The notes under the pieces are model-generated. The model saw nothing but the letters and a program-made list of their open reading frames with translations, was not told the DNA's origin and ran no database searches. From positions 253 to 64,252 of the forward strand of contig CAZLXM010000007.1 of NCBI GenBank assembly GCA_964563105.1: a DNA stretch of 64,000 bases, read 5' to 3'. A program made the position numbers and the translations under genes. Positions within the stretch are counted from its first letter, which is position 1; every line of letters begins with the position of its first letter. This DNA is from an uncultured Bacteroidaceae bacterium. Its GTDB lineage: Bacteria; Bacteroidota; Bacteroidia; Bacteroidales; GCA-2748055. Below are positions 41,794-54,181 of the stretch, one piece after another.

Positions 41794-41972
41794 AATTAAA
41801 AGAATTGTTTTTAATAAAAAGTAAAATTACAGATACGCTATTATAATAAATTATACTAATAAATGCCGTGTATGCTTAAGATATGGTTACTCCGGGAAAT
41901 TATAAGGAATGGTATTAAAATATCTTTTTAATTGAAAATTGCAGAGCGCTGAAAATTTAATTTCCACACAAG

Positions 41973-42059
41973 CGGTGAGGGAGGGATTCGAACCCTCGGT
42001 ACCCTTGCAGGTACGACAGTTTAGCAAACTGTTGGTTTAAGCCACTCACCCACCTCACC
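41973..42059 (-). tRNA. tRNA-Ser (anticodon GCT)
   Basis: The reverse complement folds by hand. Acceptor GGTGAGG/CCTCACC, anticodon stem ACAGT/ACTGT with loop TTGCTAA, long variable arm CGTACCTGCAAGGGTACC, T-arm GAGGG-TTCGAAT-CCCTC and discriminator G. No CCA is encoded. Confidence 0.9.
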
Positions 42060-42190: not shown

Positions 42191-42643
42191 TTATTTCGAA
42201 ATATATGACATTATTCCAATAGCTTCTCCTTGTTTTCCATTCTTAAAGTTTATCAGAATGTTATATATACCGGATTTTTGACAGGAGAAATTAATTGATC
42301 TATATTCTTTACCGGTATCCGGATAATAAGTACTTGCCAATAAGGTAGTTTCATCATATAGCCGAAGTACAGCTTCTCCTTCTGATTTTTCCATATTACA
42401 GATAGAAAATCTGTAGGTTACATTTTTACGTAAAACGAGGGCAGTTTTGAATACTGCCGGACGTTCGTCTGGCTTGGTAGCATTTAGTTTAATTACAAAA
42501 TCCTTTAGATAAATTGCATCAGGACCTGCACTCATAGCACATTGTTGTATACTTTTTTGAATATCCTGACTAATTAATGATACAGGAAGAAAAATACTGG
42601 CTGATAAAACTAAGAATATGAAATATATGAATTTTTTTTTCAC
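42191..42643 (-). CDS. Small secreted hypothetical protein
   Basis: Signal peptide MKKKFIYFIFLVLSASIFLP followed by a beta-rich sequence. I recognised no family. Confidence 0.4.
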   Translation of the reverse strand: MKKKFIYFIFLVLSASIFLPVSLISQDIQKSIQQCAMSAGPDAIYLKDFVIKLNATKPDERPAVFKTALVLRKNVTYRFSICNMEKSEGEAVLRLYDETTLLASTYYPDTGKEYRSINFSCQKSGIYNILINFKNGKQGEAIGIMSYISK

Positions 42644-42839
42644 ACGAATAAAATTTAGTTATTTGGTGTTAATTAATCTGTATTGACGGAATTTTTAAAT
42701 TAATTTTTTTTAAGGAATGTGATCATTTTTAGTTTAAAGTTCAGCTACACTTTTTGATACACTATTTTTAATTTAGTATTTGTACAAAAATAATTTAAAT
42801 AAGTTGTTGTAGTTCAAAATTATATAAGATTTTTAAATA

Positions 42840-43739
42840 TCAAATGGTAATCAGTTCATTTCTAATTTTAATAATTTTATGAATAATGTTATCTAAAACT
42901 TCATCTGAAACATCAACAATACTATTTTCCTGTTGAACTATCATTAACATACCATCCTGTTCCACGGCTTTTGGCTCATTAATTTCAAAAGAAATTTTAA
43001 CATTATCAAATTCATTTTTAATTTCTTCAAATTGTTTGATAAGATTTACAAATTGTTCATCATTTTGATAGTTGCGAAGTATGAGAAGCAGATTATTTAG
43101 CACGGTTTTCTGCTCACCTATATATTCTTTTAATAGTTCATCACGTGTTTCCTTAACGACCTCTGACGCGAGATACATTCCTTCAATCCATACACCGCTT
43201 ATCATTAATGCGCTTAAATTACTTCTGTCAGTGAGCCGGAGATGATCATCCATCCTGTTAAAACTATTAACGGAAAGAAATATCAAAGAATCAATGCCTG
43301 AATTTCCTGTAGCAAGTCTTTTTAGTGTCGTAAAATCAAAAAAACGGCTTACTTTTAAGCCATCAGCCAGTTTATTTATAGCTGTAAGATAACTGATTGA
43401 TGATCCGGTTTTTTCATTTACATTCAGATAACCGAGATCGGCACCTAAAATACCTAGTTTTAGGGCCATTGTAAAGCTGGTTGAGTAAGAGTCTTCTACA
43501 TTTATCTTAGATAAATAATTCGGAGAAAAAGGGAATCCGAGATCTTTTATGAGTGCTGCCATCTCTATGGGGGAAGAGATATTTTGAGTTATTTCTTCCA
43601 TTGCCTGTGCTGATATTTTCAAATCTCCTTTGTTCATTTCTGAACCCGGAACAGTAAGGTCTTCCCGAAGGCGGTTTTTACAGGAAGAAAATACCGATAT
43701 AGCAAATATAAAGATTAAAAGCTTCTGTAACATATGCAT
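42840..43739 (-). CDS. Helical hypothetical lipoprotein, last gene of the signalling/ABC cluster
   Basis: Lipobox VFSSC. It starts 25 nt after the ABC gene stop. I recognised no family. Confidence 0.5.
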   Translation of the reverse strand: MHMLQKLLIFIFAISVFSSCKNRLREDLTVPGSEMNKGDLKISAQAMEEITQNISSPIEMAALIKDLGFPFSPNYLSKINVEDSYSTSFTMALKLGILGADLGYLNVNEKTGSSISYLTAINKLADGLKVSRFFDFTTLKRLATGNSGIDSLIFLSVNSFNRMDDHLRLTDRSNLSALMISGVWIEGMYLASEVVKETRDELLKEYIGEQKTVLNNLLLILRNYQNDEQFVNLIKQFEEIKNEFDNVKISFEINEPKAVEQDGMLMIVQQENSIVDVSDEVLDNIIHKIIKIRNELITI

Positions 43740-43764
43740 AATAATTATTATATAAAAAACATAA

Positions 43765-46700
43765 TCAGATTCGTCTGCTTACCAGTTTTTTAAGCCACTC
43801 ATAATAAAGGGCTAAATAAATTAAAAGATTTAGTATCCATATTATACTGATATTAAACCAAAACGTTTCAAAATAACGTCCGGCAAAATGTTTTTTCGGG
43901 GCAAAAAAGTGAGAACGAAAATCCAGATATGATCCCGGAATTGGATCAAGGAATATAGGATCGGATTGCCTCACAAGTGAATGCCTATATTCTACTATTT
44001 TATTTTTTTCATAGATTTTTTTAACATGATCTGAAACACTTTCATTATGATATTTATCCAGCATATTGAAATATAAATCCTTCCTGTTTTTCATCAGATA
44101 GCGGATCCGATTTGTTTTTTCCCGTTCAAACTTTGTAAAAATTTGTTGATAATGATTCTTTAATTGGGAAATATAAAATTCGAATGAATAAAATATAGCA
44201 GAACTAATATTTTCGGTAGTTGACTTATTATACTCCGGATCTGTATAAATACCGGTTACTTTTTCCTGTTTTCTTATTTCATTATTTAACAAAACAAAAT
44301 CTGATGCAGAATACGTAATCTTCCCATTATCCCTGAAATCTTCAAAACATTTATTTAATCTTGTTTCTAATTCAGGAATATAATATGAAAGATGAAAATC
44401 AGAATTAGTAATTTGTTTGTCAGTATTATAAAAATGCTTTTGAAATGAGTTGTCTTTAAATTGTTTAACCATCAGAGCCTCGTATGACCACTTGGTCGGC
44501 ATAATTTCAGCCAGAAAAGGGACTTTGTCAATTCTGCTTATATTTCTGTTCAATTTATCAAAGCTAAACATCGCACCGCTCAAAACCATCATAGGAATGA
44601 TTATCAAAGGGATAATTATATAAATAGTAACAGCGGAATTAAAAGATGCGGAAATATTCAGGCCTATCAGGTTCGCACATACTGCTGTTGTAAAAAATGC
44701 AAACCAATAGTGAAAGTACATTTCACGAAGATCAATAATATAGTGGGCGACTAAAATAAAACTGGCCGCCTGGATTGCTGAAATAAGTGTAAGTATCCCT
44801 ATTTTGGATATTAAATATGCTGACCAGCTGAGATGAAGGAATTTTTCTCTTTTCAATATTTTCCTGTCTCTGAATATCTCTTCGGCACTTACTGTTAATC
44901 CGAGAAAGAGGGAAACGATAAGAGACATAAATATATAAATCGGTATATTCTCATTTTCCCTGAATATATAATGTTTGGAAGAAGGATCAGCGATATACCG
45001 GATAATATAGGAGAGAATGAATGCTAATATGGGAGCTTCAAGAAGTGTAAGGGCCAAATATTGCTTATTACTGATTTTTGAAAGAAAATCTCTCACAGAA
45101 AAAATTCGGATTTGCTTAAACCAATCTGGTATTGATAGTGTTTTTGGAGGCTTTTCATCGATACATATAAATTCAGGCCCTTTTTTCGAATTTTTAAAAT
45201 ATTCCTGCCATTTTTCGGGGCTTACTTTACGGGAAGAAGTATAATTTCCATATTCATCCACAATTCTTGCTTCGATTATATTAAATATAAGTTCGGGATT
45301 TACATTCCCGCATGTCGGGCATTCTCCAATTTCAGCATTTATTTGGGCATCAAGATACTTAAAATACATAACCGCTTCAACCGGGTTCCCGGAATATACA
45401 AGATGTCCGCCTGAATCCAGGATAATTATACTGTCGAACATTTTAAATATTTCGGAGGATGGCTGATGGATAACAACAAAAATCAGTTTTCCTTTTAATG
45501 TTAATTCTTTCAGTAAATCCATAACATTGTCGGAATCACGTGAAGATAAGCCTGAAGTAGGTTCATCCACAAATAATATGGATGGTTCTCTAATCAATTC
45601 CAAAGCTATATTTAATCTTTTCCTTTGTCCTCCGCTAATTGTTTTATTGAAAAGATCCCCAACTTTCAGGTCTTTTTTATCTTCAATTCCCAGATTTCGT
45701 AATACTAATTCTGTTTTTTTGATAATCTGTTCTTCTGTCAGGTCCTTGAAACATAGCTTAACGTTGTAATAAAGATTTTCAAATACTGTCAGGGTTTCTA
45801 TAAGCATGTCATCCTGAGGGATATACCCAATTACTCCTTTTAAGTCATCTTTGTTTTCATGCAGCTTGATGCCATTTATTTTAACCTCACCTGAAGAGGG
45901 TTTAAATATACCGGTAAGAACATTGAGAAGTGTTGTTTTGCCCGATCCGCTTGCCCCAAGTATCCCTATAAGATTCCCCTGTTGAGCCGAAAAAGAGATT
46001 TCTCTTAATCCCTTATATCCATTTTTAAAGCGATATTCAAGATTTTTAACATTGAACGAAATACGTGTTTTTACCTGTTCCGACAGGAAATAGGAAGCTA
46101 TATCACTATAATATATAATTTTCCCTTTAGGTAATTTAAGGGCACTTCCCCTTGGGATGTGAGATATATTATTTTTATGTAAAATAAGTCCATTTAGAAA
46201 AATATCTTCATTTCCCGAATATTTTACGAAATACATATTTACATTTGGGACACAAAGAACTTTTAAACCCTGATCTGCTATTCCGGTATCAAATTCTCTA
46301 AATAAAATACCTCTCTCATTGATAACCAAAATATTTGGATTTGAACTGTTTTTTGTTTTTTTCGGAAATATAAATGTTTCGATACTATTTTTTATGCTTT
46401 CCGGTATTCGGAAAACCTCTGAAACTGTTTCAATGATTGCAAGCCTTTGGGTTGTGAGCTTCATTGAAGCCAATAAAAGTTCATAAAGACGGATGCATAC
46501 AACTATTTTCTGACTCTGGTTTAAAGTTTTATTTATTCTTTTACAAATCCCCAGTATCTTTACACTATCCAAAACGGAAGTTAGTTTAGGATTAACTGCA
46601 TTTACACCCGGTTTAGGGTTAATTAAAGGCTCAGGTCCGGAAATTTCAAGGAATAAGGTATAATATTTCTCAAAACCCTTATCACCTAATTGCTGTAATA

Positions 46701-46803
46701 AAAAATTTTTTACATATTCTTTTTCTCCCTTCTCAACTCCTCCATCTTGTTTAGTGAGAATTGCAAAAAGCTGCATCAATGCCTTTAGAATCTCCTCGCT
46801 CAT
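43765..46803 (-). CDS. ABC transporter fusion protein: N-terminal regulatory region, ATPase, ABC-2-type permease and an extra C-terminal domain with a terminal TM
   Basis: Walker A GASGSGKTTLLNVLTG, signature ISGGQRKRLNIALEL and Walker B ILFVDEPTSGLS. About 6 TM segments span roughly residues 580-750. A ~240-aa hydrophilic region follows, then a final TM FWFNISIIWILNLLIYLALYY. About 260 aa precede the ATPase. Confidence 0.8.
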   Translation of the reverse strand: MSEEILKALMQLFAILTKQDGGVEKGEKEYVKNFLLQQLGDKGFEKYYTLFLEISGPEPLINPKPGVNAVNPKLTSVLDSVKILGICKRINKTLNQSQKIVVCIRLYELLLASMKLTTQRLAIIETVSEVFRIPESIKNSIETFIFPKKTKNSSNPNILVINERGILFREFDTGIADQGLKVLCVPNVNMYFVKYSGNEDIFLNGLILHKNNISHIPRGSALKLPKGKIIYYSDIASYFLSEQVKTRISFNVKNLEYRFKNGYKGLREISFSAQQGNLIGILGASGSGKTTLLNVLTGIFKPSSGEVKINGIKLHENKDDLKGVIGYIPQDDMLIETLTVFENLYYNVKLCFKDLTEEQIIKKTELVLRNLGIEDKKDLKVGDLFNKTISGGQRKRLNIALELIREPSILFVDEPTSGLSSRDSDNVMDLLKELTLKGKLIFVVIHQPSSEIFKMFDSIIILDSGGHLVYSGNPVEAVMYFKYLDAQINAEIGECPTCGNVNPELIFNIIEARIVDEYGNYTSSRKVSPEKWQEYFKNSKKGPEFICIDEKPPKTLSIPDWFKQIRIFSVRDFLSKISNKQYLALTLLEAPILAFILSYIIRYIADPSSKHYIFRENENIPIYIFMSLIVSLFLGLTVSAEEIFRDRKILKREKFLHLSWSAYLISKIGILTLISAIQAASFILVAHYIIDLREMYFHYWFAFFTTAVCANLIGLNISASFNSAVTIYIIIPLIIIPMMVLSGAMFSFDKLNRNISRIDKVPFLAEIMPTKWSYEALMVKQFKDNSFQKHFYNTDKQITNSDFHLSYYIPELETRLNKCFEDFRDNGKITYSASDFVLLNNEIRKQEKVTGIYTDPEYNKSTTENISSAIFYSFEFYISQLKNHYQQIFTKFEREKTNRIRYLMKNRKDLYFNMLDKYHNESVSDHVKKIYEKNKIVEYRHSLVRQSDPIFLDPIPGSYLDFRSHFFAPKKHFAGRYFETFWFNISIIWILNLLIYLALYYEWLKKLVSRRI

Positions 46804-46818
46804 TATTATAAGTAATTT

Positions 46819-47193
46819 CTAATATTTAATAAATTCAAAAGGCACATCAGTCATTTCGCTGTATTCTTCTCCGGCTTCTTTCATATCCTCATCATAATCG
46901 GGATAGTACCATTTAACTAATATACCTGCACCTTTTTTAATAATATCTTCAAGGATTAAAAGAATATCCAGGATCTTTTTTGATGAAGCTGTGTTAAAAT
47001 AACTGAATTTAAAAGCCAGGGTTGTTTTTTTAAGAGGATCTGTTGAATATTGTTTTAGCCATTTAAGTACTGGCTCATAAAAAGTATTAACATCTTCGGG
47101 CAAAGATTTTCCTTCGATCTTAAACAAACAATTATCTTTGTCCAGGATTATTTCAGGATTATCATCACTTGCTTTAATAATTAACTTGTCCAT
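46819..47193 (-). CDS. SiaC-like (DUF1987) regulatory phosphoprotein
   Basis: At 124 aa it matches the DUF1987 pattern: ...PEIILDKDNCLFKIEGKSLPEDVNTFYEPVLKWL...FKFSYFNTASSKKILDIL...WYYPDYDEDMKEAGEE. Confidence 0.8.
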   Translation of the reverse strand: MDKLIIKASDDNPEIILDKDNCLFKIEGKSLPEDVNTFYEPVLKWLKQYSTDPLKKTTLAFKFSYFNTASSKKILDILLILEDIIKKGAGILVKWYYPDYDEDMKEAGEEYSEMTDVPFEFIKY

Positions 47194-47194
47194 T

Positions 47195-47776
47195 TTATTT
47201 TATATTTCTTGGAATTGCTGAAGTAAAAAGGAAAAAGGAGATGTTATCAGAAAGTGGAAGAAATTGATATTCAAGTTTTCCTCCGGTCTTTCTTTTTATA
47301 TCAATAAATCCTAATCCTGCTCCGCCTTTTTTTGATATTCTGCCTTCTTTCAATTGTTTCTTATATAATTCGTTTAACTCATCTTTTTCAAGCGAATTAA
47401 TTTTTTCGATAAATTTGCGAAGTGGATTTACTCTTGAATTATTTATTAGATTTCCTGTAACAACATGGTATTCTGATTTATTTACACTAATCATTAATAG
47501 GCCTTTATGAATATTTCCTGATGCAGATATTGAAGGTATTAAAGCATGCTTTGTTATATTTTGCAGACATTCAATCATAACATGATATACTTTTTTCTGT
47601 ACGATTTCAGATTCATCTTCCCTCGAAAGTTTATCTTCTGTTACTGAAGAAAATGTTTTAATTAACTGATGATTAATATCTCCTTCATATGCCATTGTGA
47701 TTTCATATTCTTTCATCCCGTTATATAAGTCATATAAAAACTTCAGGAAATTGCAGCAATTTTTATTTGAATTCAT
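47195..47776 (-). CDS. SiaB-like protein kinase (GHKL/anti-sigma-kinase-like ATPase fold)
   Basis: Pattern YEITMAYEGDINHQLI...VYHVMIECLQNITKHA...KKGGAGLGFIDIKRKTGGKLEYQF. It ends 1 nt upstream of the siaC-like gene. Confidence 0.75.
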   Translation of the reverse strand: MNSNKNCCNFLKFLYDLYNGMKEYEITMAYEGDINHQLIKTFSSVTEDKLSREDESEIVQKKVYHVMIECLQNITKHALIPSISASGNIHKGLLMISVNKSEYHVVTGNLINNSRVNPLRKFIEKINSLEKDELNELYKKQLKEGRISKKGGAGLGFIDIKRKTGGKLEYQFLPLSDNISFFLFTSAIPRNIK

Positions 47777-47805
47777 TTATTTTATAATTAAATCTGCAAC
47801 AAATA

Positions 47806-50412
47806 TTAAAATTCAATACCTATCATTAACAGGTCATCGAGCTGTCTTGTCCCATCCTGCCATTTTGCAAAGTCATGTTGAAAAAATGAGTAGTAGTTTT
47901 CCATGGAATAATTTTGATTTTCAAGTATAAGCTCTCTGACTCTTTTAGTTGAATATTTTCTTCCATAAGGGCCTCCAAGCTGGTCAGTAAGGCCGTCAGT
48001 AAAAAAAAATATCTTATCCCCTTTTTTGGTTTTTATAGTTTTATTAGTGAATTTTACTTCTGCCCTTTTCCCTGTCATTAAACCTCCTATCGCTCTCCGG
48101 TCGCCTTTGTATTCTCTAAGTATCCCTTTACTAAAATGTAGAAGTGGTCTGTAGGCACCCGCATATTCCAAATATTGTTTTTCGAGATTTATTTTACAGA
48201 GAGCGATATCCATACCATCCTGGCTCTCAGATGAGTTAAGTTCCTGTTTTAAGGTGTGCCTTACCTTTTTATTTAATATATTTAAAATTTCTGCAGGAGA
48301 GTATCCATTGTAATTATCAACTGTATCATTCAGGAGAAAATATCCGACAAATGAAAGGAGAGCACCGGGAACACCATGCCCTGTACAATCTATAGCCGCA
48401 ACATACAGCCATTCATCTTTAACATTAAACCAGGGGAAATCGCCCGAAACCACATCCCTTGGTTTATAAAAAACAAAACTATCAGGGAAGTATTTTTGGA
48501 ATATCTTTAAATCGGGGAGGAGTGCTTTTTGAATTCTTTTAGCATAATTGATGCTGTCTTCAATATTTTTATTTTTAATTTGAATCTCTTTTTCAATCTT
48601 CTTGGCTTCAGTAATATCATGCCCGACAAATAATACAGTTTCAAGTACATTGTTTGAAATTTCCGGAATGGCATCAAAACTTATTATTCTTTCCAACAGC
48701 ATATCTCCCATTTTAACAGTTACCGAAATTTCAGTATTAGTTTTATGGGGATTTACTGAAATTTCCATCAGGGTGTTGGTAAAGTAATCTTTAAATGTTT
48801 TATGAATTTCAACTTCCGACAAAAATTTGTTAATAAGGCCTTTTGAGTCAAAAGGTATATAATCTTCAACTACCGGATTTACGTAATGAAATTGTCCCGC
48901 AGTACTCAATCTAAGTATAAGGTCCAGGGAATTTTCGGATAATGATTGCATCCTTGACTTAAGACGCTCTTCTTTTTCAGCTCTTATTTTTTCGGTAATA
49001 TCTCTTGAATTTAGAATAATTCCTTTTATTGAAGGATCATCCAGCATATTTTTGGATGAGGTTTCGAGGAAAATGCGCTCTCCATCTTTTTTTATAAAAG
49101 AATAACGAATTACATGCTTTTCATTTATTCCCAATGCTGTGTTTTCCATCAGTTTACGCATATTGTACTGATTTTCTTTAGCTAAACGTTCAAAATCTTT
49201 TCCATTCATCATTTCTTCGGGTGTATAGCCAAGTATTTTAATAACAGATGGGCTCACATATGTCATTTTGAGGTCATGATCATAAATGGATATTATTTCT
49301 GAAGCATTTTCAAGTAACCAGTGGAGTTTACTTTGTGCATTTTCAACTTCTATAATCTTGGTTTCAAGTTGGTTATTAATTTTTTGCAGCTCTTCCTGTG
49401 TTTTTTTCATTATTCTCGCATTTTCCTGCAATTTATGTTCATTAGAACGGAGTTCTTCTGTCATCTTCTGCGATTCAGAAAGCAGAGATTCAGTTTTAAG
49501 CCTTAATTTAAGATTATGTAAAGCTCGCCCTATTATTTCACCAAGTTCAAGCATAAACTGTATGGTTAACTTAGGAACTTTTTCCTGAAGAAATGCAAAT
49601 TCAACTACGCCCTGAAGGTTATTATCTGAAATTAAAGGGATTAGAAGAATACTGGCGGGTTTTTGATCACCTAAAATACCAGATGTTATAGAAATGTAGT
49701 CTTTCGGAATTTCAGTCCTGTAAATGTAGTCCATTTCATAAGCACATTCTCCTATCAGGCTTTCTCCAATCCTGAATTCCTGATCAACAAATCTTCGACG
49801 GTTGTAAGCATAGTGTGCGATATTAATCAAAACTTTCCGTTCATTATCAAGCAAATAAAAAGCTCCCTGGCTTGCTTCAATATAGTTTATAAGAGTTTTA
49901 AGAAGCTGAAAGGATATTTCATTTAGATTGGTATGAGTTCTTAATATCCGGGAAATAATTTCCTTTCCTTCAGATATCCATGTTTGTTGCTTTTCTTTCC
50001 TGGCATTGGAGCGCAGAAAACTCTGTAACATGATTAGGGCATTTCCCAGCTTATCATCCGGCCCTTCAGTGTTAATTGGTATAGTGAAATCACCTGTGCC
50101 AATTCTTTTGGCTTGTTCAGCATATCCCTCAATCAGTGCCCTTTTAGCTGAAATTAAAGATTGAAATTTTATTTCCTTTTCGTGATATTTTTTCTGAAAT
50201 TTAATGTAAGTTATAATAAAAAGAAAAGGAAATAAGTCTGCAAGGAATACTACAGGATTGACAGCATGAATGGCCGCAATTCCGGTCAATGAGAAAGAAA
50301 TCTTGTAAAATGAAACCAGGCCTATATACAAAACAATAAAATAGACAATTCCCGGAAGAACTATTTTATAGATGTTTTTTTTATATTTTATTTGAATCAG
50401 ATCAGGCTTCAT
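47806..50412 (-). CDS. Membrane-anchored HAMP-like/GAF/coiled-coil/PAS/PP2C (SpoIIE-type) protein phosphatase, SiaA-like
   Basis: N-terminal TM segments. GAF-like region SQGAFYLLDNE...LIGECAYE...LLIPLISDNNLQGVVEF. PAS-like regions lie around ASEIISIYDHDLKMTYVSPS. The C-terminal SpoIIE motifs are VVSGDFPWFNV...VAAIDCTGHGVPGALLS...FFFTDGLTDQ. Confidence 0.8.
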   Translation of the reverse strand: MKPDLIQIKYKKNIYKIVLPGIVYFIVLYIGLVSFYKISFSLTGIAAIHAVNPVVFLADLFPFLFIITYIKFQKKYHEKEIKFQSLISAKRALIEGYAEQAKRIGTGDFTIPINTEGPDDKLGNALIMLQSFLRSNARKEKQQTWISEGKEIISRILRTHTNLNEISFQLLKTLINYIEASQGAFYLLDNERKVLINIAHYAYNRRRFVDQEFRIGESLIGECAYEMDYIYRTEIPKDYISITSGILGDQKPASILLIPLISDNNLQGVVEFAFLQEKVPKLTIQFMLELGEIIGRALHNLKLRLKTESLLSESQKMTEELRSNEHKLQENARIMKKTQEELQKINNQLETKIIEVENAQSKLHWLLENASEIISIYDHDLKMTYVSPSVIKILGYTPEEMMNGKDFERLAKENQYNMRKLMENTALGINEKHVIRYSFIKKDGERIFLETSSKNMLDDPSIKGIILNSRDITEKIRAEKEERLKSRMQSLSENSLDLILRLSTAGQFHYVNPVVEDYIPFDSKGLINKFLSEVEIHKTFKDYFTNTLMEISVNPHKTNTEISVTVKMGDMLLERIISFDAIPEISNNVLETVLFVGHDITEAKKIEKEIQIKNKNIEDSINYAKRIQKALLPDLKIFQKYFPDSFVFYKPRDVVSGDFPWFNVKDEWLYVAAIDCTGHGVPGALLSFVGYFLLNDTVDNYNGYSPAEILNILNKKVRHTLKQELNSSESQDGMDIALCKINLEKQYLEYAGAYRPLLHFSKGILREYKGDRRAIGGLMTGKRAEVKFTNKTIKTKKGDKIFFFTDGLTDQLGGPYGRKYSTKRVRELILENQNYSMENYYSFFQHDFAKWQDGTRQLDDLLMIGIEF

Positions 50413-51175
50413 GACACATATTTGTCAGGCTAAAAAGTTCTTTCCCAAGTTCATTTGATAATATTTTTAATATTTCCAAACCATTATTGCCGATATCTGA
50501 CAAGGTGGAAAATTCTATTAATGCTATACACTGGTCTTCATAGATTATAGGGGTTAGATAAAGAAAGCGGGCATAAGTGCTGCCCAGTCCTGATGCGAGT
50601 AATCTATATGTTTTAGAAAGATTGGATAATTTCATTACTTGCATATCTAAAGCTGCTTGTCCATGAATGCCTTCACCAGCTCTAAAAGGTAAAGCCCGGT
50701 TTTCCGGAGCTATGGCATATTCTTCTGAAACCTCAAAAAGAGAATGTTCCGGATTATAAAGAAATACTACTCCCTGCATGATATTAAACTCGGATGCAAG
50801 ACTTTTAAGGATAGTTGCAAAACCTGGTTTACTTAATTTTTGAATCGTTTCCTGCTTTATTTTTTGAGCAATGTCATAAGGCCTTATATACTGGACTTCT
50901 TTATTATCTGAAAGAGAGGCTTTATTTACTTCAGATGAGATTTCATTTTTAAGGTTGTTACGAATTTTATTTACCGGATAATTATTAATGTATTGAAAAA
51001 ATAAAAATATTATGAGAAGCAGGATAATACTAAAAAAAAATAATAAGATAAAAGGATAATTTCCAGTTTTAATATAAATATTCCATGAAATGAAAAACAA
51101 TCCGGAAACAGATATTGTTAGTAGCACAAATGCTGATACTATATATTTTATATTACTAAAATCCTGAATCTTCAT
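50402..51175 (-). CDS. Two-TM membrane protein with a cytoplasmic GAF-like domain
   Basis: There are two hydrophobic segments. Then MQGVVFLYNPE...GEGIHGQAALD...LTPIIYEDQCIALIEF is colinear with the GAF regions of the two flanking genes. Its stop overlaps the next gene's start by 11 nt. Confidence 0.6.
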   Translation of the reverse strand: MKIQDFSNIKYIVSAFVLLTISVSGLFFISWNIYIKTGNYPFILLFFFSIILLLIIFLFFQYINNYPVNKIRNNLKNEISSEVNKASLSDNKEVQYIRPYDIAQKIKQETIQKLSKPGFATILKSLASEFNIMQGVVFLYNPEHSLFEVSEEYAIAPENRALPFRAGEGIHGQAALDMQVMKLSNLSKTYRLLASGLGSTYARFLYLTPIIYEDQCIALIEFSTLSDIGNNGLEILKILSNELGKELFSLTNMCHEA

Positions 51176-51299
51176 TTAAACCCGAGCGTTTAATACTTAA
51201 ATATTTTTCTGATTAATCCGGTAGTTCCCGTAGTAATCAACTTTTACGGAAAAATCAGATTCAGGTTTTAAATTTTCCGGGTAAAAACTATTTGCTTGA

Positions 51300-53333
51300 T
51301 TATGAGGATATATCAGAATAAGGAGGAATATTTTTTTGAAGTGTTTTTATCTGATCATTTAATCTTTGAATTTCATTTGCAGCTTTCTCCAGCAATTGAT
51401 GGTTTTGTTTCTTTTCTGTAATATCATTGGCTATATTTATTATTTTTTGGATTTTCCCATCATTATCAACAACAGATGAGAATGTTCCTTCCAGCCATAC
51501 TTCTTTTCCACTGAAAAGCCTGTATTTTTCTATTTTGTTTATAATCTGTCCTTCACGAATGTTTTTCCAAAATAGTTTATATTCTTCACTATATTTATCA
51601 GTCAGTGCAAAATCGCTATGATGTTTTCCGATTATCTGGTCTTTGGATGTTTCCAGAACTAGTTGCATTTTATCATTCACATTTGAAAACCTTCCGTTCT
51701 CAGTGAATTCTGCTACTAAAGAAGATGAATTAACCGCAAATAATATAGCTGACATTTCAGATTCTTTTTTATGATATTCATCCTGTGCTTTTTGTAATTG
51801 GGCCATACTTTTTTTCATTCGCTCTTCCTGTTGTAGCATTATTTCAGTTTGTTCCCGTGATTGTTCTAAAAGCTTTGATTTTTGTTCATTAATTTTTACT
51901 GAAGCAAGTGTTGAGGCTGTAATTTCACTAATTTGCCCAACAAAGGTTATTTCAAATGTTTGTAATACTTTCATTGATGCAATTTCGAGAACACCAATAA
52001 CTGCTTCTTCAATTTTCAGGGGCACGACCAGAAGACATAATGGTTTTGATTCGCCTAGTCCTGAGCTTATTTCAAGATAATCTTCCGGAATATCTGTCAT
52101 AAATATTGTTTCTTTTTCCAGTGCGCATGTCCCTACGAGTCCCTCACCAGTCTGTATTTGCTTTTGCAAATATTTTCGTCTGTCAAACGCATAAGCAGCT
52201 ATCATATCAAAATATGTCCCTTCATTTTCATCTTTTGCAAGATAAATTCCGGCTGCTGAGGCTCCAATATATTGCACCAGATTTAAAATAACTTTATATG
52301 CCAATTCTGTCACATTCTCCCTCTCAGAACGAAAAATTTCTCCGAATTTTGCAATTCCTTCATTTATCCAACTTCTTCTGTTGTCTTCTTCAATTCTTTT
52401 TAAAGTTTCAATCCGGGTATGATATAGTTTTTCTTTTAATCTTATTAGAGAACTTCCAAGGATGTCATGTTCTCCTGCAGGAATAAAACCGGCTGAATAA
52501 TTTCCTTCAGCTAAATTATTTGCAAATTCAGCTTTTGTTTTTAGTTGTGTAGTAAGAATATTCAGGTCATCATTTATTAACCTGATATCATCAAATCCTG
52601 CCGATTGCAAATTGTCAGGTATTTTGCCTTCTTTAAGGTGCCCCGTATTTTTTTTAATTTCAGCAAAACGGAGAGACAGTACAGATCCAAAATAGTATAG
52701 AAGGCTAATTATCAGGATGCCTGAGATAGATAACCAAATAATAAGTTTTGAACGATAAGTCTTGTAATAATCTGAAAGGTAATCTGAACTAAATTTGTAT
52801 AAGTCCATTATTAAATTCTCAATTAAACGGGTTTGAATTATAAAATCATCCAGAATCCCGCCTTTATCCCTTCCTCCTATTTTGCGTAATATCCTGTTGT
52901 TCTGAGATATATCGTCAAAATTTGCAAATAATTGGTCAATTGCATTTTTGTAATCAACTGTAAGTTTATTCAATTCACTGAGATTTTCCCTGATAGTACG
53001 GATCTTTCTAATTTCAGGAGGATTTGTAACAAAAGGAATACTATTTTCAAAAACATCAAATGAAGATTGTAATGCAAGTAGTTCTATGTTCGCTTCTTCA
53101 GGATTTTCTTCAGGATGAAAAAGGCCGGCTTCGGGATTAACATGAGTAATACCAAGGTAATTTATATAATTATGGAATAATACATTTGTAATAATCAGAT
53201 CTGATTTTATTTCTGATAATTGCATTAACCTGTTCCATCTGTCAAAAAAGAATAAACCTGACAATATCCATATTGACATAAAAATACTGGTGAAAAGCAC
53301 TATAGTGCTTTTTATTCCAGGCAATCGGGCCAT
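51300..53333 (-). CDS. Membrane sensor-like protein: TM, periplasmic region, TM, HAMP-like, GAF, coiled-coil, PAS; no recognisable output domain
   Basis: TM segments at ~10-30 and ~196-218. HAMP-like LAEGNYSAGFIPAGEHDILGSSLIRL. GAF SAAGIYLAKDE...LVGTCALE...LVVPLKIEEAVIGVLEI. PAS-like LVAEFTENGRFSNVNDK...GKHHSDF...INIANDITEKK. It ends after the PAS region. Confidence 0.7.
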   Translation of the reverse strand: MARLPGIKSTIVLFTSIFMSIWILSGLFFFDRWNRLMQLSEIKSDLIITNVLFHNYINYLGITHVNPEAGLFHPEENPEEANIELLALQSSFDVFENSIPFVTNPPEIRKIRTIRENLSELNKLTVDYKNAIDQLFANFDDISQNNRILRKIGGRDKGGILDDFIIQTRLIENLIMDLYKFSSDYLSDYYKTYRSKLIIWLSISGILIISLLYYFGSVLSLRFAEIKKNTGHLKEGKIPDNLQSAGFDDIRLINDDLNILTTQLKTKAEFANNLAEGNYSAGFIPAGEHDILGSSLIRLKEKLYHTRIETLKRIEEDNRRSWINEGIAKFGEIFRSERENVTELAYKVILNLVQYIGASAAGIYLAKDENEGTYFDMIAAYAFDRRKYLQKQIQTGEGLVGTCALEKETIFMTDIPEDYLEISSGLGESKPLCLLVVPLKIEEAVIGVLEIASMKVLQTFEITFVGQISEITASTLASVKINEQKSKLLEQSREQTEIMLQQEERMKKSMAQLQKAQDEYHKKESEMSAILFAVNSSSLVAEFTENGRFSNVNDKMQLVLETSKDQIIGKHHSDFALTDKYSEEYKLFWKNIREGQIINKIEKYRLFSGKEVWLEGTFSSVVDNDGKIQKIINIANDITEKKQNHQLLEKAANEIQRLNDQIKTLQKNIPPYSDISS

Positions 53334-53335
53334 AT

Positions 53336-54181
53336 TTATGACTTTTTAAAATATACTTGTTGTTTTTTTTCAAAATAATTACTGCAACTTCCCTGAATGC
53401 GTTCATGCATGCCAAGTATCAGGCAACCGGAAGCAGGAAGGTTACTATAAAAAAGTTGATACATCTTTTTTTGCATTGAAGGGTTAAAATATATGATTAC
53501 ATTTCTGCATACAATTATATCATAATATAAACCAAAAGGATTCCCTTCTTTAATTATATTGGATAATTTATAAACAGGTTTGTTTAAAAGGGCAGGAGAC
53601 ATTCTAAGTTCATCCGTAGCCTCGTCAATAGTAAAATATTTATTATATGATATTTTCTTTTTTTGCATGGATATTGATTCAGGATTAATTACCTTTTCGA
53701 AATTATCAAGAAATATTTTGTTACTCAAATATTTGTAAATTCCTTTTTTTGCAATTTCCAAAGAATCAGGATTAATATCAGTTGCATATATTTCGCATTT
53801 TTCAAACAAATTTAGCTTATCTAACAGGATCAACATTGAATACACTTCTAAACCTGTGGAACAGCCTACATGCCATATTTTTACAGTATTTTTATTTTTG
53901 TAATATGGCAAAACAGTATTTTGTAAATTTATCCATAGTTCAGTATCCCTGAATAATTCAGTAGTGTTTACGGTAATGATTTTAATAATGTTATCTGCGA
54001 TACTTTTATCTTTAATAATCTTGTCTGAAAGTTGCAACAAGTTTATTTTGTATGTGCGTAATACTTTGCTTAATCTATTTTTCAAGGAATTAGCAGAATA
54101 GCCTGATAAATCATAACATGAAAATTCTTTAAGTGTATCAATAATAAATTTAACGTCATTATTATCCGTAATATCTGTCAT
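53336..54181 (-). CDS. CheR-type SAM-dependent protein-glutamate O-methyltransferase-like protein
   Basis: CheR motifs TELFRD, IWHVGCSTGLEVYSMLILL, IYATDINPDSLEIAKKGIY and DIIVCRNVIIYFN. Its stop lies 2 nt before the next gene's start. Confidence 0.8.
   Translation of the reverse strand: MTDITDNNDVKFIIDTLKEFSCYDLSGYSANSLKNRLSKVLRTYKINLLQLSDKIIKDKSIADNIIKIITVNTTELFRDTELWINLQNTVLPYYKNKNTVKIWHVGCSTGLEVYSMLILLDKLNLFEKCEIYATDINPDSLEIAKKGIYKYLSNKIFLDNFEKVINPESISMQKKKISYNKYFTIDEATDELRMSPALLNKPVYKLSNIIKEGNPFGLYYDIIVCRNVIIYFNPSMQKKMYQLFYSNLPASGCLILGMHERIQGSCSNYFEKKQQVYFKKS

What the first reader, a model, noticed from the sequence alone, without database searches (positions are those of the whole stretch)
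42840..54181. Eight-gene cluster coupling a CheR-like methyltransferase and GAF/PAS sensors to a SiaA/SiaB/SiaC-type partner switch whose likely output is an ABC transporter rather than a diguanylate cyclase
All genes are on the minus strand, with spacings of 2, 124, -11 (overlap), 29, 1, 15 and 25 nt. The order is as follows:
- CheR-like methyltransferase
- TM-HAMP-GAF-PAS protein with no output domain
- 2TM-GAF protein
- TM-HAMP-GAF-PAS-PP2C phosphatase (SiaA-like)
- SiaB-like kinase
- SiaC-like DUF1987 protein
- 1012-aa ABC fusion protein
- lipoprotein

In Pseudomonas aeruginosa the SiaA phosphatase and SiaB kinase set the phosphorylation state of SiaC. SiaC then binds and activates the diguanylate cyclase SiaD. 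This window has no GGDEF/EAL/HD-GYP protein. The gene in the SiaD position is an ABC transporter with a long N-terminal regulatory extension.

This suggests a Ser/Thr partner switch that gates a transporter (export of a surface polymer, lipid or signal), with multi-sensor and possibly methylation-based input. I am not aware of such a system being described.
Basis: partly seen in the sequence, partly recalled or inferred. Interest (0 to 1): 0.8.

Follow-up and report, generated by a model that had tools for sequence, protein, structure and literature searches.

The report
SiaBC phospho-switch wired to ABCG transporter
This is a conserved Bacteroidia gene cluster in which a Pseudomonas-type threonine phospho-switch (SiaA/SiaB/SiaC) sits directly next to an ABCG-type membrane transporter instead of the usual c-di-GMP enzyme, which suggests, without proving, that the switch controls export across the cell envelope.

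Summary
All eight ORFs, their spacings and most domain calls check out. The cluster has a ninth gene, for a secreted 150-aa protein.

The transporter is an ABCG-fold half-transporter. It carries a family-specific N-terminal module (a TerB-like helical bundle plus an FHA-like beta-sandwich) and a C-terminal extension.

I examined 80 loci from different Bacteroidia species that encode this transporter family:
- A SiaC-like gene lies immediately upstream in 75 of 76 evaluable loci.
- SiaB is present in 71 of 72.
- The PP2C phosphatase is present in 58 of 65.
- The lipoprotein is present in 68 of 69.
- The small secreted protein is present in 64 of 66.

Proteobacterial relatives instead have PP2C-SiaB-SiaC-GGDEF. 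Most Bacteroidia relatives also carry a second CheR and a CheB methylesterase, which this window has lost.

Catalytic motifs of the phosphatase, kinase and ATPase are intact, and so is the phospho-acceptor Thr68.

Direct gating of the transporter by SiaC is inferred from gene context only. The substrate, the docking site and the direction of signalling are unknown. I found no paper describing this coupling.

Verdict: a new variant of a known partner-switch system. It is genuinely interesting and needs experiments.

The parts
53336..54181 (-). CheR-family SAM-dependent methyltransferase (281 aa). It is not an orthologue of chemotaxis CheR by NCBIfam score.
   Evidence: Pfam CheR 118.8 bits; CheR_N only 16 bits; NCBIfam CheR equivalog 66 bits against a cutoff of 435. 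A homologue lies within 10 kb upstream in 50 of 56 related loci.
51300..53333 (-). Membrane sensor (677 aa). It has two TM helices flanking a periplasmic segment of about 170 aa, then GAF and PAS, and no output domain.
   Evidence: Pfam GAF_2 at aa 341-474 and PAS at aa 544-640. Hydrophobic segments at aa 11-29 and 197-215. HAMP is not detected. Relatives carry 4HB_MCP_1-GAF-PAS sensors.
50402..51175 (-). Small 2-TM protein with a weak GAF-like C-terminal domain (257 aa). It overlaps the SiaA-like gene by 11 nt.
   Evidence: GAF 17.7 bits, below cutoff. TM segments at aa 12-30 and 42-60. The homologue in L022 scores GAF_2 36 bits. The gene is syntenic in most loci.
47806..50412 (-). SiaA-like sensor phosphatase (868 aa): N-terminal TM helices, GAF, PAS and a PP2C/SpoIIE domain.
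   Evidence: Pfam and NCBIfam hits. The C-terminal 274 aa align to P. aeruginosa SiaA-PP2C (6k4e, E=4.5e-34), and the DVVxGDF, DCxGHGVPGAL, TDGxxDQ and DD motifs are conserved (catalytic residues listed in PMC7647112). The domain lies upstream of the ABC gene in 58 of 65 loci.
47195..47776 (-). SiaB-family protein kinase (193 aa).
   Evidence: NCBIfam SiaB_fam_kinase 154 bits against a cutoff of 85; Pfam DUF6272 135 bits. Aligns to P. aeruginosa SiaB (6kko_A, E=1.9e-11), with QNI and GAGLG motifs shared. Present in 71 of 72 loci.
46819..47193 (-). SiaC-like DUF1987 phosphoprotein (124 aa) with acceptor Thr68 in the motif YFNTAS.
   Evidence: Pfam SiaC 131 bits. Aligns to P. aeruginosa SiaC (6kko_C, E=5e-12), with window YFNTAS opposite YLNTSS. 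YFNTAS is found in 73 of 75 orthologues. The gene lies immediately upstream of the ABC gene in 75 of 76 loci, with a median gap of 45 nt.
43765..46803 (-). ABCG-fold half-transporter (1012 aa) with N- and C-terminal extensions.
   Evidence: Pfam ABC_tran plus ABC2_membrane. Full-length sequence alignments to ABCG2 and ABCG5. AlphaFold model pLDDT 79.6. The best Foldseek matches are ABCG5/G8, ABCG2, ABCG1 and plant ABCG16/25, with target-normalised TM 0.62-0.79 among the top 50 half-transporter matches. Walker A, Q-loop, signature, Walker B plus catalytic Glu, and H-loop are invariant in 54 homologues.
46363..46803 (-). ABC N-terminal TerB-like helical domain (aa 1-147), with a disordered linker at aa 58-74 followed by a near-invariant KLTSVxDS motif.
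   Evidence: Homologues carry Pfam TerB PF05099; the window copy itself has no Pfam hit. Seven helices are predicted. Foldseek hit to PG1108 (2h5n, prob 0.99, E=0.15). The start MSEEILKAL..LF is largely invariant.
46084..46341 (-). ABC FHA-like beta-sandwich (about aa 155-240), probably not a canonical phosphothreonine reader.
   Evidence: The top 26 Foldseek PDB matches, and most of the first 50, are FHA domains (CEP170, MEK1, Rad53, Chk2; E about 0.02, prob about 1, target-normalised TM 0.4-0.5). The best profile hit against PDB is the MEK1 FHA domain, at a non-significant E=0.23. In that alignment the family has TGxED where the MEK1 FHA has SLNGT.
43768..44442 (-). ABC C-terminal extension (aa 788-1012): long helices, a small beta unit and a terminal TM helix at aa 980-1000.
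   Evidence: Secondary structure of the model; hydrophobic segment at aa 981-999. Conserved in 77 of the 80 loci at 31-46% identity. No Pfam family.
42840..43739 (-). Lipoprotein (299 aa) of an uncharacterised family.
   Evidence: Signal peptide plus an invariant Cys20. No Pfam or PDB sequence match. Lies directly downstream of the ABC gene in 68 of 69 loci.
42191..42643 (-). Secreted small protein (150 aa with a signal peptide). This is a ninth conserved member of the cluster that the finding did not list.
   Evidence: Sequence. Present downstream in 64 of 66 loci. Signal peptides in homologues. No Pfam or PDB match.

Best explanation
This is a conserved Bacteroidia signalling-and-transport module.

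Input (inferred). Membrane GAF/PAS sensors set the activity of the SiaA-like PP2C phosphatase. In most relatives a CheR/CheB methylation pair accompanies them; in this window there is a single CheR.

Switch (inferred from homology and conserved catalytic and acceptor residues). The phosphatase and the SiaB-like kinase set the phosphorylation state of Thr68 on the SiaC-like protein.

Output (inferred from gene context only). One form of SiaC then binds the co-encoded ABCG-type half-transporter and switches its activity. By analogy with Pseudomonas this is the unphosphorylated form. The most likely docking site is the family-specific cytoplasmic N-terminal TerB-like/FHA-like module.

Transport (guess). 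The transporter works with the lipoprotein and the small secreted protein encoded just downstream. It probably moves a hydrophobic or lipid-like envelope component outward. That guess rests on the substrates of known ABCG transporters.
For: 1. The homology is genuine and the active sites are intact.
- The PP2C domain aligns to SiaA-PP2C (E=4.5e-34) with the metal-binding Asp/Gly motifs.
- The kinase passes the SiaB-family cutoff and aligns to P. aeruginosa SiaB.
- SiaC aligns to P. aeruginosa SiaC with Thr68 in register, and the YFNTAS motif is kept in 73 of 75 orthologues.
- The ATPase motifs are invariant.

2. The ABC gene occupies the siaD slot. Proteobacterial loci read PP2C-SiaB-SiaC-GGDEF. 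No GGDEF motif occurs in the window.

3. Synteny across 80 species-level loci gives SiaC 75/76, SiaB 71/72, PP2C 58/65, lipoprotein 68/69 and orf150 64/66. From the SiaC side, 4 of 4 look-ups return the same cluster.

4. The minimal core retained in Carboxylicivirga is SiaB-SiaC-ABC-lipoprotein-orf150, with no phosphatase or CheR nearby. This ties SiaBC to the transporter rather than to the sensors.

5. The N-terminal module occurs only at the N-terminus of this roughly 1000-aa ABC family (241 representative clusters at E<=1e-30). Parts of it are near-invariant.

6. There is precedent. Rv1747, an ABC transporter with N-terminal FHA domains, is regulated by Ser/Thr phosphorylation from an operon partner (PMC3138270). 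SiaC is proposed to regulate adjacent proteins (PMC8457831).
Against: - There is no direct evidence of SiaC-transporter contact. No SiaC-ABC gene fusion was found among the unusually long family members.
- The FHA-like call is weak (Foldseek E about 0.02; profile E=0.23). The loop that binds phosphothreonine in canonical FHA domains is replaced by acidic residues, so a phospho-dependent docking mechanism is not supported.
- One locus (L037) has the transporter without SiaBC, the lipoprotein or orf150.
- Cytophagales SiaB-SiaC pairs have no adjacent ABC, so SiaBC does not always need this partner.
- Conserved adjacency would also arise if the transporter were the input, or if the two were only co-expressed.
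- The 80 loci are the closest of at least 413 relatives, and all are Bacteroidia. More distant relatives were not examined.
Confidence: 0.55

Rival explanations
1. The kinase, not SiaC, talks to the transporter. As in classical RsbW/SpoIIAB switches, the SiaB-like kinase binds or phosphorylates the transporter's N-terminal region, for example the near-invariant Thr/Ser in KLTSV that follows the disordered linker. SiaC only titrates the kinase. The FHA-like domain then reads an intramolecular phosphosite, as proposed for Rv1747/PknF.
For: - KLTSVxDS is near-invariant directly after a low-confidence linker at aa 58-74.
- An FHA-like fold lies next to it.
- In Rv1747, linker threonines between the FHA domains are the kinase targets (PMC8339232, PMC3138270).
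- In canonical partner switches the kinase is the output-binding component (established knowledge of RsbW/SpoIIAB).
Against: - In the only characterised SiaABC system the output runs through SiaC, and SiaB's known substrate is SiaC (PMC8457831, PMC7647112).
- The canonical FHA phosphothreonine-binding loop is not conserved.
- No phosphorylation of the transporter is known.
Confidence: 0.13
2. The transporter is the input, not the output. Its transport or occupancy state is sensed (flux sensing, as with Bce-type ABC transporters) and relayed through SiaB/SiaC to a target encoded elsewhere.
For: - Conserved adjacency says nothing about direction.
- The Carboxylicivirga loci keep SiaB-SiaC-ABC but no linked phosphatase or sensors. 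The transporter could therefore be what supplies the signal there.
- Cytophagales SiaB-SiaC pairs with no adjacent partner show that unlinked targets exist.
Against: - The cluster already carries three dedicated membrane sensors upstream of the switch in most genomes.
- The ABC gene sits exactly where the output enzyme SiaD sits in proteobacteria.
- No candidate downstream target is conserved in the neighbourhood.
Confidence: 0.13
3. The link is operonic co-expression only. The switch and the transporter serve the same physiological response but do not touch each other, and SiaC regulates something else.
For: No physical or fusion evidence. One transporter occurs without SiaBC (L037).
Against: - Immediate adjacency is kept in 75 of 76 loci, with a median 45-nt gap, across genera whose flanking genes differ.
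- A dedicated, family-restricted cytoplasmic N-terminal module sits on the transporter.
- Adjacency of regulator and target is the rule for SiaC-SiaD (PMC8457831).
Confidence: 0.1

Closest known systems
SiaABCD partner-switch system of Pseudomonas aeruginosa (PA0172-PA0169)
   Same: - Same gene order: PP2C phosphatase, SiaB kinase, SiaC.
- The proteins are homologous to the solved SiaA-PP2C, SiaB and SiaC structures.
- The phospho-acceptor Thr68 is conserved, as are the catalytic motifs.
- An effector gene lies directly downstream of siaC.
   Different: - The effector is an ABCG-type transporter, not the GGDEF diguanylate cyclase SiaD.
- The phosphatase's sensor part is TM-GAF-PAS.
- Extra sensors and CheR (CheR/CheB in relatives) are attached.
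- Scores fall below the NCBIfam equivalog cutoffs for SiaA, SiaB and SiaC.
Rv1747/PknF of Mycobacterium tuberculosis (FHA-domain ABC transporter regulated by Ser/Thr phosphorylation)
   Same: - An NBD-TMD fused ABC exporter with N-terminal regulatory beta-sandwich domain(s) of FHA type.
- It is encoded in an operon with the Ser/Thr phospho-signalling enzyme that controls it (PMC3138270, PMC8339232).
   Different: - Rv1747 has two canonical phosphothreonine-binding FHA domains and a Hanks-type kinase that phosphorylates the transporter itself.
- Here the domain is only FHA-like and lacks the canonical binding loop.
- It is preceded by a TerB-like domain.
- The signalling unit is a SiaB/SiaC/PP2C partner switch.
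STAS-type partner switches with non-sigma outputs (HptB-HsbR-HsbA/HsbD in P. aeruginosa; BgrSTUWV/BgrR in Sinorhizobium)
   Same: A PP2C phosphatase and an RsbW-like kinase set the phospho-state of a small antagonist protein, which then binds an enzyme rather than a sigma factor (as summarised in PMC8457831).
   Different: Those outputs are diguanylate cyclases and the antagonist is a STAS protein. Here the antagonist is a DUF1987 protein and the presumed target is a membrane transporter.
Eukaryotic ABCG half-transporters (ABCG1, ABCG2, ABCG5/G8, plant ABCG16/25)
   Same: NBD-then-TMD order and the type V ABC exporter fold. Target-normalised TM is 0.62-0.79 with 18-26% identity for the half-transporter matches.
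   Different: - This is a bacterial protein.
- It has an added 250-aa TerB-like/FHA-like N-terminus.
- It has an added 225-aa C-terminal extension with an extra TM helix.
- It is accompanied by a lipoprotein and a secreted protein.
Chemotaxis-like pathways with alternative outputs (for example Wsp: WspC/WspF methylation controlling the WspR cyclase)
   Same: CheR-type, and in relatives CheB-type, enzymes are embedded in a non-motility signalling cluster.
   Different: No MCP signalling domain, CheA or CheW is found in the cluster. The sensors are GAF/PAS proteins and the transmitter is a PP2C phosphatase. The CheB in the two relatives whose genes were scanned (L022, L076) is a bare catalytic domain with no receiver.

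Membership tests
SiaABCD system (P. aeruginosa type) | PP2C-type phosphatase homologous to SiaA, with catalytic Asp/Gly residues | tested here: met
   Aligns to 6k4e at E=4.5e-34 with the catalytic motifs conserved. The NCBIfam SiaA equivalog cutoff is not reached (172 bits against 700), because the sensor half differs.
SiaABCD system (P. aeruginosa type) | SiaB-family kinase | tested here: met
   NF038262 scores 154 bits against a cutoff of 85. The equivalog NF038264 scores 74.5 bits against 225, so that cutoff is not met. Aligns to 6kko_A.
SiaABCD system (P. aeruginosa type) | DUF1987/SiaC protein with a phospho-acceptor Thr equivalent to T68 | tested here: met
   PF09345 scores 131 bits. 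T68 in YFNTAS aligns with YLNTSS of P. aeruginosa SiaC. The equivalog score is 82 bits against a cutoff of 150, not met.
SiaABCD system (P. aeruginosa type) | GGDEF diguanylate cyclase (SiaD) as the SiaC target, encoded downstream | tested here: not met
   The downstream gene is an ABC transporter. No GGDEF motif occurs in the window. None appears in the related clusters that were annotated.
ABCG / type V ABC exporter | NBD N-terminal to an ABC-2 type TMD in one polypeptide, with intact ATPase motifs | tested here: met
   ABC_tran at aa 266-417 and ABC2_membrane at aa 564-782. The ATPase motifs are invariant.
ABCG / type V ABC exporter | Fold similarity to solved ABCG structures | tested here: met
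   Foldseek E about 1e-23 and target-normalised TM 0.62-0.79 to ABCG5/G8, ABCG2, ABCG1 and plant ABCG16/25. The model's pLDDT is 79.6.
FHA domain | FHA beta-sandwich fold | tested here: inconclusive
   The top 26 Foldseek matches, and most of the first 50, are FHA domains, but at E about 0.02 and target-normalised TM 0.4-0.5. The best profile hit against PDB is the MEK1 FHA domain at E=0.23. There is no Pfam FHA hit.
FHA domain | Conserved phosphothreonine-binding residues (Gly-Arg, Ser-x-x-His, Ser/Thr-x-Asn-Gly loop) | tested here: not met
   In the alignment to the MEK1 FHA domain the family has TGxED opposite SLNGT. No conserved Gly-Arg or Ser-x-x-His is evident. This is an alignment-based judgement on a weak alignment.
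TerB domain (PF05099) | Match to the Pfam TerB model | tested here: inconclusive
   Many homologues carry PF05099, but the window copy gives no hit even at E<=10. The model is a helical bundle resembling PG1108/2h5n (prob 0.99, E=0.15).
Chemotaxis CheR/CheB adaptation system | CheR methyltransferase domain | tested here: met
   PF01739 scores 118.8 bits. The N-terminal CheR_N domain is weak at 16 bits.
Chemotaxis CheR/CheB adaptation system | CheB methylesterase partner | tested here: not met
   tblastn with the CheB of L022 finds no CheB in the window. CheB is present in 50 of 56 related loci.
Chemotaxis CheR/CheB adaptation system | Methyl-accepting (MCP signalling) substrate domain, CheA and CheW | tested here: not met
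   No MCPsignal, CheA or CheW family appears among the cluster proteins here or in the annotated relatives. Only a 4HB_MCP_1 ligand-binding domain is seen in some sensors.
Rv1747-type FHA-ABC transporter | Canonical FHA domain(s) plus a Hanks-type kinase that phosphorylates the transporter | tested here: not met
   The domain is only FHA-like. The linked kinase is SiaB-type, not Hanks-type. Phosphorylation of the transporter cannot be tested with these tools.

The most novel reading that the evidence does not exclude
Non-flagellated Bacteroidia may use a chemotaxis-style adaptation pair (two CheR plus one CheB) acting on GAF/PAS membrane sensors rather than on MCPs. This pair would tune a PP2C/SiaB/SiaC threonine partner switch. 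The output of that switch would be direct gating of an ABCG-type lipid or envelope exporter through a dedicated TerB-like/pseudo-FHA docking module. That would be a complete and previously undescribed signal-to-transport pathway.
Probability: 0.35. Interest if true: 0.8.

Novelty: new variant of a known kind. Interest (0 to 1): 0.62.

Why it matters
Partner-switching systems are known to control sigma factors, diguanylate cyclases and secretion-system regulators. A transporter as the direct target would add a new class of output.

It would also explain what SiaBC-like modules do in Bacteroidia. The clusters examined here carry no GGDEF gene beside siaC.

The transporter is a bacterial relative of the ABCG family, which includes the sterol, lipid and drug exporters. 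It comes with a conserved accessory lipoprotein and a secreted protein, so it may mark an unknown envelope-export pathway in a large group of anaerobic, marine and gut-associated Bacteroidia.

The embedded CheR/CheB pair, with no MCP, CheA or CheW, hints at reversible methylation of non-MCP sensors.

All of this can be tested directly in cultured carriers such as Anaerophaga thermohalophila or Carboxylicivirga.

Tried and rejected
- Pfam on the isolated N- and C-terminal extensions, the lipoprotein and orf150 at E<=10 gave nothing useful.
- Profile searches of the lipoprotein and orf150 families against PDB sequences gave no credible match. Their folds and roles remain unknown.
- The sigma-70 promoter and terminator scan found no more sites than shuffled sequence. 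Bacteroidota promoters also differ from that consensus. A TAnnTTTG search only suggested a possible internal promoter in front of orf150.
- I looked for a SiaC-ABC gene fusion among unusually long family members. Their extra length comes from Lys/Glu-rich linkers and longer C-termini, not from a fusion.
- I tried to identify the source organism through the transporter protein. The protein is in NCBI on a 64,288-bp contig, but no name or context is on record.
- I considered a canonical phosphothreonine-reading FHA domain that would bind phospho-SiaC. I rejected it as the leading idea because the binding loop is not conserved.
- I searched the SiaA-like sensor and the 257-aa TM-GAF protein for CheR/CheB target sites. 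Only generic conserved EE/QE pairs turned up, in the GAF-PAS coiled-coil linker of the SiaA-like protein. This is too weak to claim.
A tblastn of plasmids gave only a small sample.

Full report
**Observation**

The ORF list reproduces the eight minus-strand genes at exactly the coordinates given. From those coordinates the spacings are 2, 124, -11, 29, 1, 15 and 25 nt, as stated.

Pfam and NCBIfam confirm most of the domain calls:
- a CheR-family methyltransferase;
- a GAF-PAS membrane protein of 677 aa;
- a GAF-PAS-SpoIIE/PP2C protein of 868 aa whose C-terminal half matches the NCBIfam SiaA model;
- a SiaB-family kinase (154 bits against a cutoff of 85);
- a SiaC/DUF1987 protein (131 bits);
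- a 1012-aa ABC_tran plus ABC2_membrane fusion;
- a lipoprotein with no known family.

Three details do not hold or need qualifying. The HAMP domains are not supported by Pfam; the best hit is 12 bits at E=0.24. The GAF call in the 257-aa protein is below threshold in this copy, although a homologue passes it. The cluster also has a ninth conserved gene, 42191-42643(-), for a 150-aa protein with a signal peptide.

The cluster is bounded upstream by a divergently transcribed nitroreductase gene and downstream by a tRNA-Ser. No GGDEF-like or HD-GYP-like motif occurs in any long open frame of the 64-kb window. EAL domains were not searched for.

**The switch proteins are real Sia homologues with intact chemistry**

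The last 274 residues of the 868-aa protein align to the crystallised SiaA-PP2C domain (6k4e, E=4.5e-34). The conserved blocks are DVVsGDF, DCtGHGVPGAL, TDGltDQ and DDllmi. These hold the Asp/Gly residues that PMC7647112 lists as the metal site.

The kinase aligns to P. aeruginosa SiaB (6kko_A) and shares the QNI and GAGLG motifs. The 124-aa protein aligns over its whole length to P. aeruginosa SiaC (6kko_C, E=5e-12). Window Thr68 in YFNTAS lies opposite the Thr of YLNTSS. This motif is present in 73 of 75 orthologues from other genomes.

All three proteins score below the NCBIfam 'equivalog' cutoffs. They are family members, not orthologues of the Pseudomonas proteins.

**The transporter**

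Sequence searches align the region from about aa 265 to 790 end to end with ABCG2 and ABCG5. A full-length AlphaFold model built from 54 homologues has a mean pLDDT of 79.6. Foldseek places it with ABCG5/G8, ABCG2, ABCG1 and plant ABCG16/25, at E about 1e-23 and target-normalised TM 0.62-0.79. Walker A, Q-loop, signature, Walker B with the catalytic Glu, and the H-loop are invariant. It is therefore an active ABCG-fold half-transporter.

Two extensions are specific to this family.

- N-terminal extension, about 250 aa. It modelled well (pLDDT 82).
  - Residues 1-147 form a seven-helix bundle. Homologues are annotated TerB, PF05099, and Foldseek finds PG1108/2h5n. The window copy itself gets no Pfam hit.
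  - Residues 155-240 form a beta-sandwich. Its top 26 Foldseek matches, and most of the first 50, are FHA domains (CEP170, MEK1, Rad53, Chk2, PNKP), but only at E about 0.02.
  - A 50-sequence profile of this part finds the MEK1 FHA domain as its best PDB hit, at a non-significant E=0.23.
  - In that alignment the family has TGxED where the MEK1 FHA has SLNGT. I therefore call it FHA-like and probably not a phosphothreonine reader.
  - The first roughly 20 residues (MSEEILKAL..LFA..KQD) are largely invariant. A KLTSVxDS motif directly after a disordered linker (aa 58-74) is near-invariant.

- C-terminal extension, aa 788-1012. It consists of long helices, a small beta unit and a terminal TM helix. 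Given the known ABCG topology, in which the C-terminus of TM6 is cytoplasmic, most of this extension is probably cytoplasmic. That is an inference.

An exhaustive profile search shows that the N-terminal module occurs only at the start of roughly 1000-aa proteins or on gene fragments. There are 241 representative clusters at E<=1e-30. No SiaC-ABC fusion was found.

**Comparative genomics: the key test**

I scanned one genome per GTDB species with a profile of the N-terminal module. This found at least 413 relatives. The best 80 loci were fetched with 10-kb flanks, and all are Bacteroidia. They include Marinilabiliaceae, Carboxylicivirga, Saccharicrinis, Anaerophaga, Salinivirgaceae, Williamwhitmania, one Cyclobacteriaceae MAG and many Bacteroidales MAGs.

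tblastn with the window's proteins gave the following counts:

| Gene | Present / evaluable loci |
|---|---|
| SiaC immediately upstream of the ABC gene (median gap 45 nt) | 75 / 76 |
| SiaB | 71 / 72 |
| PP2C phosphatase | 58 / 65 |
| CheR within 10 kb | 50 / 56 |
| Lipoprotein | 68 / 69 |
| orf150 | 64 / 66 |

Starting from SiaC homologues instead, 4 of 4 context look-ups returned the same cluster. Flanking genes differed except between the two closest pairs.

Two kinds of exception are informative.
- Carboxylicivirga genomes keep only SiaB-SiaC-ABC-lipoprotein-orf150, with no phosphatase, sensors or CheR nearby. SiaBC therefore travels with the transporter, not with the sensors.
- One Marinilabiliaceae MAG (L037) has the transporter alone beside ExbB/ExbD genes.

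Outside this clade the picture differs. Proteobacterial megaplasmids show the canonical PP2C-SiaB-SiaC-GGDEF order. Two Cytophagales plasmids have SiaB-SiaC with neither a GGDEF nor this ABC gene next door.

That criterion is clearly not met.

**Methylation input**

In the two relatives whose genes were scanned against Pfam (L022 and Anaerophaga L076), the cluster is larger. It reads CheR, GAF-PAS sensor, second CheR, stand-alone CheB methylesterase, TM-GAF, SiaA, SiaB, SiaC, ABC, lipoprotein, orf150.

Overall, 50 of 56 loci with enough upstream sequence have both a second CheR and a CheB. The precomputed annotation of two further relatives also shows the CheR-CheB pair.

The window has only 124 nt where that pair would be, and no CheB anywhere in its 64 kb. 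It is a reduced variant. A close relative whose SiaC is 71% identical still has the pair.

No MCP signalling domain, CheA or CheW is present, so the methylation substrate is unknown. Conserved EE/QE pairs in the GAF-PAS linker of the SiaA-like protein are only a weak lead.

**Most likely mechanism**

Shown by homology and residue conservation:
- a working PP2C phosphatase;
- a SiaB-type kinase;
- a SiaC-type substrate with the acceptor Thr;
- an ATP-hydrolysing ABCG-fold transporter.

Inferred from near-universal adjacency, from the siaD-slot position and from the family-restricted cytoplasmic N-terminal module: SiaC, in one phospho-state, binds the transporter and changes its activity. The lipoprotein and the secreted protein act as periplasmic partners.

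Guessed from the substrate range of ABCG transporters: export of a hydrophobic envelope component.

I put about 0.55 on this model as a whole. I am more confident, about 0.75-0.8, that the switch and the transporter are functionally coupled in some direction.

The rivals are:
- the kinase rather than SiaC contacts or phosphorylates the transporter, as PknF does with Rv1747;
- the transporter is the sensor input to the switch;
- the genes are merely co-expressed.

**Comparison with known systems and novelty**

This is not a SiaABCD system in the strict sense, because the defining cyclase is absent. It is a SiaABC-type partner switch with a different neighbour.

The nearest functional analogue for phospho-control of an ABC exporter is Rv1747/PknF (PMC3138270, PMC8339232). 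That system differs in its kinase type, in having canonical FHA domains, and in direct phosphorylation of the transporter.

The SiaC-SiaD structure paper already suggested that DUF1987 proteins modulate adjacent proteins (PMC8457831).

Full-text searches found no description of a SiaBC/DUF1987-ABC coupling or of this TerB-like/FHA-like ABCG family. The searches combined SiaC and SiaB with 'ABC transporter', with partner-switch and Bacteroidetes, and with synteny. They also covered DUF1987 alone, and 'TerB domain' with FHA and 'ABC transporter'.

I rate it a new variant of a known kind. It is interesting and well supported as a conserved module. Its central mechanistic claim has not been tested.

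Noticed in passing
window 51176-51299; related loci such as L022:4153-5536 and L076:3295-4907: Most relatives (50 of 56) carry a second CheR and a stand-alone CheB methylesterase between the GAF-PAS sensor gene and the TM-GAF gene. The window has only a 124-nt gap there and no CheB anywhere, so this copy has lost the demethylation half of the pair.
   Followed up: yes
L007, L008, L015, L027, L031, L049 (Carboxylicivirga spp.): These loci hold a reduced module, SiaB-SiaC-ABC-lipoprotein-orf150. No PP2C phosphatase, sensors or CheR lie in the upstream sequence held (10 kb for five of the six loci; only 1.4 kb for L027). In L008, the one locus annotated with Pfam, the upstream genes are PorZ-like, DUF3352 and a GFO/IDH/MocA oxidoreductase. 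The phosphatase must be encoded elsewhere or be absent.
   Followed up: partly
L037:7146-13066: This is the single exception. A Marinilabiliaceae MAG has the TerB-like/FHA-like ABCG transporter without SiaB, SiaC, the lipoprotein or orf150. It lies directly after an ExbB-ExbD-ExbD cluster and before a type IIG-like restriction-modification gene.
   Followed up: partly
window 46570-46590 (ABC aa 72-78) and 46744-46803 (aa 1-20): Two striking conserved patches lie in the transporter's N-terminal domain. One is a largely invariant start, MSEEILKAL..LFA..KQD. The other is a near-invariant KLTSVxDS immediately after a disordered linker. They are candidates for a docking surface and a phosphosite respectively.
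   Followed up: partly
window 42644-42839: The lipoprotein-orf150 gap is 196 nt here, against a few to tens of nt in most relatives. It contains two TAnnTTTG motifs (Bacteroidota -7 consensus), so orf150 may have its own promoter in this genome.
   Followed up: no
window 41972-42059 (-): A tRNA-Ser (anticodon GCT) lies just downstream of orf150 and marks the end of the cluster.
   Followed up: yes
L084:6419-7378 (Bernardetia plasmid); L085:3974-7393 (Persicobacter plasmid): Cytophagales plasmids carry SiaB-SiaC (Bernardetia) or PP2C-SiaB-SiaC (Persicobacter, followed by an IS3 element), with neither a GGDEF nor an ABC gene downstream. SiaBC modules in Bacteroidota therefore have further, unidentified outputs.
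   Followed up: no
window 49378-49461 (SiaA-like aa 318-345): The coiled-coil linker between GAF and PAS of the SiaA-like phosphatase has EE/QE pairs conserved in at least 85% of 57 orthologues. This is a weak lead for the unknown CheR/CheB methylation substrate.
   Followed up: partly
L081:2041-2919, L082, L083: In one sub-lineage the cluster lacks CheR and CheB. It starts with a 4HB_MCP_1-GAF-PAS sensor preceded by a polyphosphate kinase 2 (PPK2) gene.
   Followed up: no
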